Made by a program: the position numbers
Shown here: positions 27,001 to 30,000 of the stretch, piece by piece
Layout of the letters: each line of letters opens with the position of its first letter
Numbering within the stretch: the stretch's first letter is position 1
IMG/VR virus record: IMGVR_UViG_2537562172_000008
Length of the DNA stretch: 37,078 nucleotides
Source: a virus
Lineage: Duplodnaviria > Heunggongvirae > Uroviricota > Caudoviricetes
Strand: one strand, 5' to 3'

Positions 27001-30000
27001 TTTCCATCTTTACCCTCGCTTATCCACATAACTTATTGATTACATTGATAACTAAAAAGATCGTCGATTCAGAACTCTTCGATGTTCCAGCCACCACCTG
27101 CTTTCTTTGGCTTAACCGTTACCCCGATGATTCGGAACGGATACTGATCTGCGGCGACTTTGGTTTTCACCCTGGCGTCGTCGGTCCAGAAACCTTTCAC
27201 TTCGTGCAGTTACATCTCGCCGGTGGCGAGCATCACAGCGAAATCGGGCGTATAAAACGTGTTATCAGCTAACCGCAGCTTGATACCCTCGAATCGATAC
27301 CAGGCGATTTCCCCTGCACGTTTACGCTGCTCAAGGTGCTGGCAATACGCAGATTCTGTTTTGTTCATCTGTCCTGTTTTGAGTCGACCAAGAGCCTGTA
27401 TCTGTTTTCTCATGATTTACCTCTGAGGTAATTAAAAACCACATAAGACACGAAATCAATAGATCTAAGAATATTTTGTTACCCATTGGGTAACTACACA
27501 GGCGTAAAAAAATGCGCTGCCGCGCTGGTGCTACCTGATGAGTCCTGCCGCCTTTCCTCGCCTGTATTCCTCCATCAGCCACTGCGCCGGTGTTATTCCC
27601 CCAAGGGTGGCGGCGTTAGGCATGCACCCGAAACTTCGCCCTGGTGGATGGTAAACGTCTCTGCCTGTGTCCGGAGATGTACTCATGGGTTCTGGCTTTG
27701 CCTGTATGCTGATCACCGGATCGGGTATCTGCTGTCCGGAAGCCACCTTTTTCGCCCAATCATCGAGCAGCCTGCGCGCGTGTTTCTCAACCTCAATCTC
27801 GCTAAGCTGGCGCTGATACATTGCACGGCGGGTATCACATACGACCCAGTACATAACCGGATGCCGCCACGGGAATCTTTCGGGACCACCAGGATATAAA
27901 CTTTTTTCCTTGCTGTACCGGTGAAACTCCGCCATCACATCGTCAATGGTGACGCCAAGAACCATCTTGCTGTCTTTGCACCACTTGATGAATTGCCCTG
28001 GCGACGGCCAGAACGGAGACTCACTGGCGCGGGCGTGGCGCATACCAGCAGAAACCTGTTCACGGGTTCGGATCCCCCCTTCGGCAAACGCAGCAATCCA
28101 CTGCTGTTTTGCAGCAACTTCCTGCTCTGGCGTCTTCAGGTTGGTTACCACTGCCGCCGGAAACAGTTGTTTCAGCTGTTTGAAAAGGGCATCAACAAGC
28201 CTCTCTGCTGACATGTTCACCACGTTGTCATTGTTGGTGTACTGATGCTCATAACCTGACATGCGAGAAAGGGCTTCTCCGTCACGGTTTTGTATTGCGG
28301 TAAAAACGTTGTTCACAAGAAATCCTCCCACGCTTCAGGGCTGTTCCAGTGCGGAACGTTGTTATCAGGTAATGTTGATTGCTTCTGTCTGCTAATCTGC
28401 AGCCGCCTTGCCAGCTTCTGCTCCCACTGTGCCTGATGGTATGCCTTACCCTCAGCCATCCAGTAAATTCTGAACTCTGCAAGTTCCTGTGCCGTTGGCA
28501 GACTGTCCAGGTAGATCCCCTGCAATGAGCTTTTCCGAAGAAAGTCATCTGATGGCTGCCATTGTTCATGCATGACAAATTTGCCTAATTGCCCTGGCCC
28601 ACCAGGAGGAACAAAGTTATTCATCACGGCGTTGTTTGCGCCGGGGTCATGATGCACAGAATCCCCGGTTTTTGTCCTGCTCTCCCTCTCTTGGTTAAAT
28701 GACTGGTTATATGACTGGTTCTGGATCCCGTTTTTGGGATCATTCAACATCCCGTTTTTGGGATCATTCAACATCCCGTTTTTGGGTATATTCCCGTTTT
28801 CGGTAACATTACCGTTTTCGGGTTCATTACCCCCTTCCCGGTTGCCTTTAATGTTCCCGTTTTTGGTTATATTAAGAGAGAAAACCCGCACTCTTTTCGT
28901 CGCTCCCTTTCTCTCTCCGGTATCTGAAATAAGCCCCATTTTCATGAGCGATATAAGTCCGGCCTGCACGGTTTTTTTATTCAGGCAAGTGTCTTTAACT
29001 AGGCGTTCTATGCTGGGGTAGCAGAGGTTATATTCATCGGCTCTGTCAGCCATCGAGAGCAGTATGAGCTTTAATGATGAGCTGCCTGGATCTGTCTCCC
29101 AGGCCCAATCTGTTGCATGTCTGCTCATGATTAATCTCCGCTATCAGCTTGAGTGTTGTGGGGAGGAATTAATCATGATCTGCTTAATCTCTGCCCTGAT
29201 GCGACGGTTTGATTCCATGGTGCACTCAACACAGTGTCCGTTGTAAACCCAGCGTTCACTGTCATGTCCGTGCTTACATTGTTTTCCGGTGTAATAGCGT
29301 TTAAGTCCGCGCTTTGCGGCATCAATACGTGTAATGATTTCCATGGTAAGCCCTGTTATTAGTATTGGGATTACGGTCATTTTGTGCTGACACAAAAAAA
29401 AGATCAACCACATTTGGTTTTTTATTACCTTTGAGGTGCGAATAGATATGAAAAGACCGCCGGATGGCGGTCTACAGAGGGTTGTGGCTGGATATCATGA
29501 GTAGAAGAAGTATGCCAGTTCTGCTTTTGAGCGCAGCCATTGTCTTGTTTTACAGGCTTTAAAAAGCCCATTCATCAATACCTTACCTGGCATTTTGCGC
29601 TTACCTGTTAAGTGAGTCTGGATATAGTGACTCGTCGTTCCGGCTTCCTGTGCGAAGGCTTCACGCTCATCCGGAGTAAGTGCAAGCCAGTGCTTTTTGA
29701 AATCGAAATGTCCGTTATCGCTCATAGCTATTGCCTGATATTTATTTCAGATAATAAATATTCACCCATAAGGTAACAAAAATCAAGGATAGTTACCTAT
29801 GGGGTGCATTTACCTGTTGGGTAATATTGCTTTAAATTGAATCATCTACTGATTCATATATGAGGCGATTTTCCAGAAAATGAAAAGTATCCAGGACGTC
29901 CGCAGGCAAAATCTCAACGACTTGATCGACCGTGAATTCAATGGTGTTCAGACGCGGATGGCAGAAAAACTTGGAACTCAGGCAAATCTGGTAAACCGCT

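What the first reader, a model, noticed from the sequence alone, without database searches (positions are those of the whole stretch)
27069..27413. Small PD-(D/E)XK nuclease gene split by a single in-frame ochre codon
Seen: the ORF from ATG 27413 ends at TAA 27210-27212, and the same frame continues for 46 more sense codons to TGA 27069-27071; the catalytic-looking PD (YTPDF) and E-V-K (HEVKG) residues fall on either side of the stop. This is either a recent nonsense mutation inactivating a nuclease (for example a resolvase-like nin-region enzyme whose activity was selected against), a sequencing error, or a site of regulated read-through. The gene is directly downstream of two operator copies.
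Basis: seen in the sequence. Interest (0 to 1): 0.45.

Follow-up and report, generated by a model that had tools for sequence, protein, structure and literature searches.

The report
Nonsense-inactivated prophage nuclease gene (DUF1064)
A small accessory nuclease gene of an E. coli phiV10-like prophage is cut short by a genuine single-base stop-codon mutation that also circulates in a few other prophages; this is ordinary loss of a dispensable phage gene, not a recoding signal or a sequencing error.

Summary
On the minus strand, ATG 27413 opens a 67-codon ORF that ends at TAA 27212-27210. The same frame runs 46 more codons to TGA 27071-27069. The 114-codon reconstruction is a DUF1064 (PF06356) PD-(D/E)XK protein, and apart from the stop it is identical to the commonest intact allele. 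Codon 68 is GAA (Glu) in every non-carrier copy examined: 121 of 121 complete copies (116 from IMG/VR, 5 reference records). No complete E. coli genome carries TAA (a GAA control probe hits 226 genomes). TAA is therefore a G-to-T nonsense change (E68*) that separates D57 from E71/K73. It is not a sequencing error: seven contigs from independent projects carry the same TAA, in at least four different prophage backgrounds. It is not programmed read-through: the stop is not conserved and the window's only tRNA is Arg-UCU. Intact alleles are under purifying selection (pN/pS 0.10), yet other natural knock-outs of the same gene exist (W76* twice, a frameshift after Q90). The best reading is a circulating loss-of-function allele of a dispensable, probably junction-resolving, nuclease. 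The two upstream "operators" are real conserved palindromes. Interest is low.

The parts
27210..27413 (-). 5' fragment of the DUF1064 nuclease gene: codons 1-67 plus the premature TAA. It retains E20 and D57 (YTPDF).
   Evidence: sequence and translation; alignment to phiV10, SPN1S, BUCT554 and E. coli 118UI.
27210..27212 (-). Ochre codon TAA replacing GAA (Glu68). This is a single G-to-T change on the coding strand, i.e. C-to-A at + strand position 27212.
   Evidence: 121 of 121 complete non-carrier copies have G; 0 complete E. coli genomes with TAA against 226 with the GAA probe; same TAA in 7 independent contigs.
27069..27209 (-). 3' remnant of the gene: codons 69-114 plus the original TGA. 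It carries E71-V-K73 (HEVKG) and shows no amino-acid change relative to intact alleles.
27417..27431 (.). Proximal palindrome TTACCTC-A-GAGGTAA (TTACC-N5-GGTAA). It overlaps the Shine-Dalgarno GAGG and the end of a -10-like hexamer.
   Evidence: half-sites invariant in 9 relatives.
27478..27494 (.). Distal palindrome GTTACCCA-A-TGGGTAAC (contains TTACC-N5-GGTAA).
27431..27459 (-). Promoter-like TTGATT-17 nt-TTTAAT lying between the two palindromes. Read by eye; not called by the scan tool.
   Evidence: Sequence. One search found no promoter under its rules (its -10 rule requires A at position 2). This part is an inference.
27506..27525 (-). Weak terminator-like element GCGC-GGCA-GCGC followed by A and T7, just after the stop of replication gene P. 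It is annotated as a putative rho-independent terminator in phiV10.
   Evidence: sequence; phiV10 annotation; conserved; not called by the scan (stem under 5 bp).

Best explanation
This is a real, naturally circulating loss-of-function allele (E68*, GAA to TAA) of the DUF1064 gene. The gene lies in a phiV10/epsilon15-like (Uetakevirus-type) prophage; in the closest relatives that prophage is integrated next to guaA in E. coli. The intact 114-aa protein is a small PD-(D/E)XK nuclease with the motif order E20 ... P-D57 ... E71-x-K73, the same as T7 endonuclease I. It probably cuts branched DNA (junction resolution) during phage replication and recombination. The gene is the first one after replication gene P, and it sits behind a promoter-like element bracketed by two conserved TTACC-N5-GGTAA palindromes. 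The ochre codon stops translation after residue 67, inside the beta-strand that leads into E71/K73. The product therefore keeps only half of the active site and should be inactive. The 3' 46 codons are an untranslated remnant. The gene appears dispensable, as phage resolvases usually are, so the allele persists and has spread, or recurred, among several prophages. Shown: the mutation, its reality, the family assignment, loss of the catalytic residues, and the existence of other knock-out alleles. Inferred: the nuclease and junction-resolving activity, dispensability, and regulation by the palindromes.
Confidence: 0.85

Rival explanations
1. The loss is adaptive. Inactivation of the DUF1064 nuclease is positively selected in some hosts, for example because leaky expression is toxic to the lysogen or because a host defence senses it. 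That would explain why the same stop is on several backgrounds and why other knock-outs recur.
For: TAA sits on three gene haplotypes that differ at polymorphic sites only 7 nt upstream and 17 nt downstream of it. Independent knock-outs exist: W76* by two different mutations, a frameshift after Q90 on at least 24 contigs with different downstream modules, and W109* forms.
Against: Knock-outs are a small minority. None of 529 complete genomes with the gene has TAA, and the intact exact allele is on at least 1000 contigs. Intact alleles show pN/pS of 0.10. In an unbiased sample the disruption rate (1-3 of 107) is not distinguishable from that of the essential neighbour P (1 of 115). Rampant recombination, with four gametes between sites 6-24 nt apart, can put one old allele on many backgrounds without selection.
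Confidence: 0.1
2. The stop is a sequencing or assembly error in this window, and the real genome has GAA.
For: It is a single-base difference from all complete genomes. The window also has a nearby-homopolymer frameshift in another gene, which could hint at imperfect sequence.
Against: Seven contigs from independent sequencing projects carry the identical TAA. Two of them are 100% identical to the window over 2.09 kb. The change is a substitution that is not in a homopolymer.
Confidence: 0.02
3. The stop is functionally bypassed, giving an active enzyme. This could be by read-through or ochre suppression producing some full-length protein. Alternatively, re-initiation at GTG (codon 72) could give a 43-aa C-fragment that complements the 67-aa N-fragment.
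For: The downstream 46 codons are still perfectly intact. A GTG lies 9 nt after the stop, and the 43-aa ORF has been annotated in E. coli STEC_S1191. From general knowledge, T7 endonuclease I-type active sites are built from segments of two chains.
Against: The stop is not conserved in relatives, so no recoding signal can have evolved around it. From general knowledge, UAA is read by both release factors and is the least leaky stop in E. coli. The element's only tRNA is Arg-UCU. There is no Shine-Dalgarno sequence at a suitable distance before the GTG. Neither fragment matches the family on its own. The break lies inside the strand that carries the catalytic E-x-K. Intactness of the remnant is expected anyway, given low divergence and frequent recombination with intact alleles.
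Confidence: 0.03

Closest known systems
DUF1064 (PF06356) proteins of Uetakevirus phages and prophages, e.g. phiV10 gp45 (YP_512300.1) and E. coli WP_021532505.1
   Same: They are 97-98% identical in protein sequence over 114 aa. The gene sits in the same place (after replication gene P and a terminator-like hairpin, before the ea/ead genes), with the same upstream palindromes.
   Different: Those genes are intact with GAA at codon 68. The window has TAA and so encodes only residues 1-67.
Bacteriophage T7 endonuclease I (gp3; PF05367; PDB 1m0d, 1fzr, 2pfj)
   Same: It is a small phage-encoded PD-(D/E)XK enzyme. 'YTPDF' and 'E-x-K-G(L/F)W' align residue for residue, and from my own knowledge of the T7 sequence there is an upstream acidic residue in a 'xLE' helix. 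PHROG labels the family 'Holliday junction resolvase'.
Lambdoid nin-region junction nucleases Rap (NinG) and RusA
   Same: The genomic niche is analogous, between the replication genes and the late genes. The presumed role is also analogous: a non-essential helper of RecET/Red-type recombination (PMC3485210). The window has RecE-like and RecT genes at 32114-33810.
   Different: The folds and families are unrelated. No RusA or Rap homologue is detectable in the window's ea region.
Natural nonsense or frameshift pseudogenes of accessory genes in prophages
   Same: A single inactivating substitution at an otherwise conserved sense codon. Sibling knock-out alleles exist in the population (W76*, frameshift after Q90), and a second disrupted accessory gene lies in the same window.
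   Different: The rest of the prophage looks intact, and the same allele is shared by several distinct prophages rather than being private.

Membership tests
DUF1064 (Pfam PF06356) | Profile HMM score above the curated gathering threshold | tested here: met
   The reconstructed 114-aa protein scores 29.0 bits against a cut-off of 24.7. It matches phrog_190 at 6e-43. There are 6831 homologue clusters, nearly all about 114 aa and carrying PF06356. The two fragments as actually encoded match nothing.
DUF1064 (Pfam PF06356) | A complete, uninterrupted reading frame of about 114 codons | tested here: not met
   TAA at codon 68. The locus is therefore a disrupted member, i.e. a pseudogene allele, of the family.
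PD-(D/E)XK nuclease superfamily | Conserved acidic and lysine motif: E ... (P)D ... (D/E)-x-K | tested here: met
   E20, D57, E71 and K73 are invariant in 45 homologues. The motif aligns with T7 endonuclease I and Bax1.
PD-(D/E)XK nuclease superfamily | alpha-beta-beta-beta-alpha-beta core fold | tested here: met
PD-(D/E)XK nuclease superfamily | Metal-dependent nuclease activity | not testable with these tools
   No DUF1064 protein has been characterised in the papers found.
T7 endonuclease I family (PF05367), junction-resolving enzymes | Profile score above the family threshold | tested here: not met
   16.1 bits against a cut-off of 29.1. The PDB phmmer E-value is 0.2-1.2.
T7 endonuclease I family (PF05367), junction-resolving enzymes | Domain-swapped dimer with composite active sites; selective cleavage of four-way junctions | not tested
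   Only a monomer was modelled.
Programmed stop-codon read-through or suppression | The stop codon is conserved at the site among homologues | tested here: not met
   GAA in 121 of 121 complete non-carrier copies. No TAA among the 529 complete E. coli genomes that have the gene. TAA occurs only in a rare allele.
Programmed stop-codon read-through or suppression | A cognate suppressor tRNA or a recoding signal supplied by the element | tested here: not met
   The only tRNA in the window is Arg (anticodon tct). The sequence around the stop is identical to intact alleles, so no dedicated signal exists. A host suppressor could not be tested.
   10 sites against 0.63 expected by chance. Pairs lie at 29762/29810 and 30522/30584, flanking the HTH repressor gene (29880-30464), and at 27417/27479. 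The half-sites are invariant in 9 relatives while the centre varies.
   The vB_EcoP_ZX5 paper gives no binding-site data.

The most novel reading that the evidence does not exclude
Loss of the DUF1064 nuclease is repeatedly favoured in some E. coli hosts. Under this reading, the same E68* stop on three gene haplotypes, two independent W76* mutations, a widespread frameshift after Q90 and W109* alleles are parallel adaptive knock-outs. The advantage could be escape from a host system that senses or is triggered by this nuclease, or relief of lysogen toxicity. This would be set against strong purifying selection on the gene elsewhere.
Probability: 0.1. Interest if true: 0.4.

Novelty: already known. 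Interest (0 to 1): 0.12.

Why it matters
It matters little on its own. The locus is a correctly read nonsense pseudogene of an annotated but biochemically uncharacterised phage gene family. It has three practical uses. First, the locus should be annotated as a disrupted DUF1064 gene rather than as two small ORFs; public records already carry the 43-aa, 54-aa and 67-aa fragments as separate 'proteins'. Second, the natural knock-out alleles (E68*, W76*, the frameshift after Q90) are ready-made isogenic material for asking what DUF1064 does in phiV10-like phages, whose function is still unknown. Third, the conserved TTACC-N5-GGTAA palindromes define a candidate operator set for this phage group.

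Tried and rejected
1. The GTDB species-representative genomes had no hit even with N at the variable base, so that collection lacks the gene and says nothing about the allele.
2. The IMG/VR and JGI metagenome scans for the TAA allele were negative. Only the exact-protein look-up in Logan, NCBI and ENA found carriers.
3. Two of the nine returned places (L133, L136) are contigs that merely end after codon 67, and I discarded them as evidence.
4. SPP1 G44P turned out to be RusA-like, not DUF1064. I used that paper only for background on the dispensability of phage resolvases.
5. The promoter and terminator scan found nothing in 26900-27700 under its rules. The promoter-like and terminator-like elements I list are read by eye and by conservation, and are marked as inference.
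6. I tried to tell single origin from recurrent mutation and could not. The tract shared by all carriers is only +196 to +218, which is invariant in every sequence, and background recombination is so dense that the haplotypes are uninformative.
7. The comparison of disruption rates (DUF1064 against gene P) was underpowered.
8. No second resolvase-type gene was found in the window by Pfam or PHROGs.
9. My first statement that DUF1064 is the only broken gene was corrected after I found the frameshifted Wzy-like gene at the left end.

Full report
**1. Observation**

Reading the minus strand, ATG 27413 starts an ORF of 67 codons that ends at TAA 27212-27210. The same frame continues for 46 sense codons to TGA 27071-27069. 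YTPDF (D57) lies before the stop and HEVKG (E71, K73) after it.

**2. What the window is**

The window is a phiV10/epsilon15-like (Uetakevirus-type) prophage of E. coli.
- Structural, replication and recombination genes are 96-99% identical to phiV10, phiv142-3, PAS61 and to prophages of porcine and bovine E. coli.
- The right end of the window is the start of a tyrosine integrase. In close relatives that integrase abuts guaA.
- The gene in question lies directly after replication gene P and before the ead/ea22-like accessory genes. In relatives it is annotated as 'DUF1064 domain-containing protein'.

**3. The stop is a single-base nonsense change**

- In phiV10, E. coli 118UI, TL-2011b, SPN1S and BUCT554, codon 68 is GAA; the window has TAA.
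- A pattern with N at that base returned at least 120 IMG/VR stretches. Together with five reference records, all 121 complete copies and 2 cut copies have G.
- A 41-nt probe centred on the base, so that every megablast seed must span it, finds no complete E. coli genome and no phage record with TAA. The GAA control probe finds 226 genomes.
- Apart from the stop, the window's protein is identical to the commonest intact allele.

**4. It is not a sequencing error and not private to this genome**

- An exact look-up of the 67-aa product finds at least 14 contigs.
- In seven of them the TAA and the continuing frame are present: Logan assemblies of ERR4421140, ERR4421141, SRR15852962, ERR14095719, SRR1118466 and SRR10947474, plus NCBI GCA_900196685.1.
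- Two further 'hits' are only contig ends, and I discarded them.
- Relationship to the window:
  - L134 and L135 are 100% identical over 2.09 kb.
  - L131 is 99.6% identical over 10.4 kb.
  - L128 and L132 share the region but have a different ea module and lack the window's 19011-23287 (large terminase and portal).
  - L129 and L130 are clearly different phages, only 92-95% identical in the terminase region.
- The T allele lies on three gene haplotypes and four flanking haplotypes. One of these is the 'KGGFW' +3-nt lineage.

**5. Single origin or recurrence?**

The carriers differ at common polymorphisms only 7 nt upstream and 17 nt downstream of the mutation. The non-carriers, however, are extremely mosaic. 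There are 65 haplotypes of the informative sites among 107 sequences. All four gametes occur between adjacent sites 6-24 nt apart. One old allele shuffled by recombination is therefore as plausible as recurrent mutation. I cannot decide between them.

**6. Family and likely function**

- The reconstruction passes the Pfam DUF1064 threshold (29.0 against 24.7 bits). It weakly matches Phage_endo_I, and neither fragment alone matches anything.
- PHROGs places it in phrog_190, 'Holliday junction resolvase' (6e-43).
- The best PDB sequence matches, although weak (E = 0.2), are T7 endonuclease I. They align YTPDF and E-x-K-G-(F/L)-W.
- E20, D57, E71 and K73 are invariant in 45 homologues.
- An AlphaFold2 model (pLDDT 73) has the alpha-beta-beta-beta-alpha-beta core. 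Residue 68 lies in the strand (67-70) leading into E71/K73.
- The literature predicts a PD-(D/E)XK nuclease and notes co-occurrence with RecT and replication genes, with no experimental function (PMC1189080 and PMC3424549).
- The truncated product keeps E20 and D57 but lacks E71 and K73, so it should be inactive. That last step is an inference.

**7. Why read-through or suppression is unlikely**

- The stop is absent from nearly all relatives, so no recoding context can have evolved. The flanking sequence is the ordinary coding sequence.
- The only tRNA in the window is Arg-UCU.
- No Shine-Dalgarno sequence precedes the GTG at codon 72 at a suitable distance.
- Other, unrelated inactivating alleles of the same gene circulate:
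  - W76* by TGA and, independently, by TAG;
  - a frameshift after Q90 on at least 24 contigs with differing neighbours;
  - W109* forms and forms disrupted at the 5' end.
- Intact alleles are under strong purifying selection: pN/pS is 0.10 overall and 0.08 for codons 69-114. The gene is therefore useful to the phage but evidently can be lost.
- Phage junction resolvases are generally non-essential (PMC3485210).

**8. State of the rest of the prophage**

- Every gene shared with the ETEC4090 prophage and with phiv142-3 is full length in the window. This includes the portal (frameshifted in ETEC4090) and the integrase (split in phiv142-3).
- A second accessory gene is broken. It is a 446-aa Wzy_C-like membrane protein, intact in E. 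coli VG48B2. In the window a net +1 frameshift splits it into ORFs 1093-1641 and 291-1121.
- The window therefore carries two inactivated accessory genes in an otherwise intact-looking element.

**9. Upstream 'operators'**

- Both palindromes fit TTACC-N5-GGTAA (27417-27431 and 27479-27493, the latter extended to 27478-27494).
- The motif occurs 10 times in the window against 0.63 expected by chance. Pairs flank the HTH repressor gene (29762/29810 and 30522/30584) and lie before the small terminase gene (23926/23944).
- Upstream of the DUF1064 gene the half-sites are invariant in nine relatives, including Salmonella and Enterobacter phages, while the central bases vary.
- By eye, a TTGATT-17 nt-TTTAAT promoter-like element lies between them. 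The proximal palindrome overlaps its -10 hexamer and the Shine-Dalgarno sequence. The scan tool did not call it.
The identity of the binding protein is untested.

**10. Verdict**

This is a genuine, naturally circulating ochre loss-of-function allele of a known accessory gene family that has no characterised function. It is an ordinary phenomenon. The only mildly interesting aspect is that the same stop, and several sibling knock-outs, recur across different prophages despite purifying selection on the intact gene. That leaves a small chance (about 0.1) that loss is adaptive in some hosts.

Noticed in passing
window 291-1641 (- strand), break near 1122-1140: A 446-aa polytopic membrane protein gene is frameshifted (net +1) in the window. 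It has a weak Wzy_C / O-antigen-ligase-like match and is intact in E. coli VG48B2 (WP_289782427.1). The shift arises from T-run length differences plus an extra T, giving ORFs 1093-1641 and 291-1121. This is a second inactivated accessory (possible lysogenic-conversion) gene. The homopolymer context could also mean phase variation or a sequencing error.
   Followed up: partly
window 4186, 20784, 23926/23944, 27417/27479, 29762/29810, 30522/30584: The 15-bp palindrome TTACC-N5-GGTAA occurs 10 times against 0.63 expected by chance. Copies come mostly in pairs in front of operon starts and on both sides of the HTH repressor gene (29880-30464). This is a candidate operator set for the whole phage group.
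   Followed up: partly
L128 and L132 (Logan ERR4421140, ERR4421141) against window 19011-23287: These carriers of the same TAA allele lack about 4.3 kb that in the window holds the large terminase, tRNA-Arg and portal genes. They are therefore defective prophages, and they also have a different ea-gene module.
   Followed up: partly
L138-L144 (homologous gene in other assemblies): There are other natural knock-outs of the same DUF1064 gene. One is an insertion or frameshift after Q90, on at least 24 contigs with several downstream modules. The others are W76* created independently as TGA (L142, L144) and as TAG (L143). Cluster lists also hold W109*-type 108-aa forms and 48-55-aa C-terminal ORFs called where the 5' part is broken.
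   Followed up: partly
L003 (phage TL-2011b, NC_019445.1), positions about 1080-1432: The TL-2011b record has an ambiguous base (N) with an extra position in the 5' part of this gene. As a result only a 54-aa C-terminal ORF (F365_gp14) is annotated. This looks like a record artefact rather than a biological truncation.
   Followed up: partly
window 1-3423: The tailspike C-terminal part and the adjacent membrane-protein gene are about 99% identical to segments annotated as 'phage head-binding domain protein / hypothetical / IntS' in other E. coli genomes. This indicates exchange of a receptor-binding or O-antigen module between different prophage types. By comparison with VG48B2, the lysis genes lie just outside the window's left end.
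   Followed up: partly
window 25253-25765 (- strand): A 170-aa ORF in the ea region shows a PD ... E-A-K pattern by eye (GEQPDAMGF ... CLIEAKCS). It has no Pfam match and only unknown-function PHROGs (phrog_9263, phrog_631). It may be another small PD-(D/E)XK-like protein.
   Followed up: no
window 28313-29128 (- strand; DnaT-like replication gene) and L128-L135: Six independent Logan contigs all begin at the same point, 1341 nt upstream of the DUF1064 start, inside the DnaT-like gene. That gene's product has a repetitive NG(N/M)...PKNG stretch, so the assembly breaks are presumably caused by this internal repeat.
   Followed up: no
window 21121-21197 (+): A tRNA-Arg (anticodon tct) gene lies between the portal-side and terminase-side genes. 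It is conserved in relatives (ETEC4090, phiv142-3).
   Followed up: no
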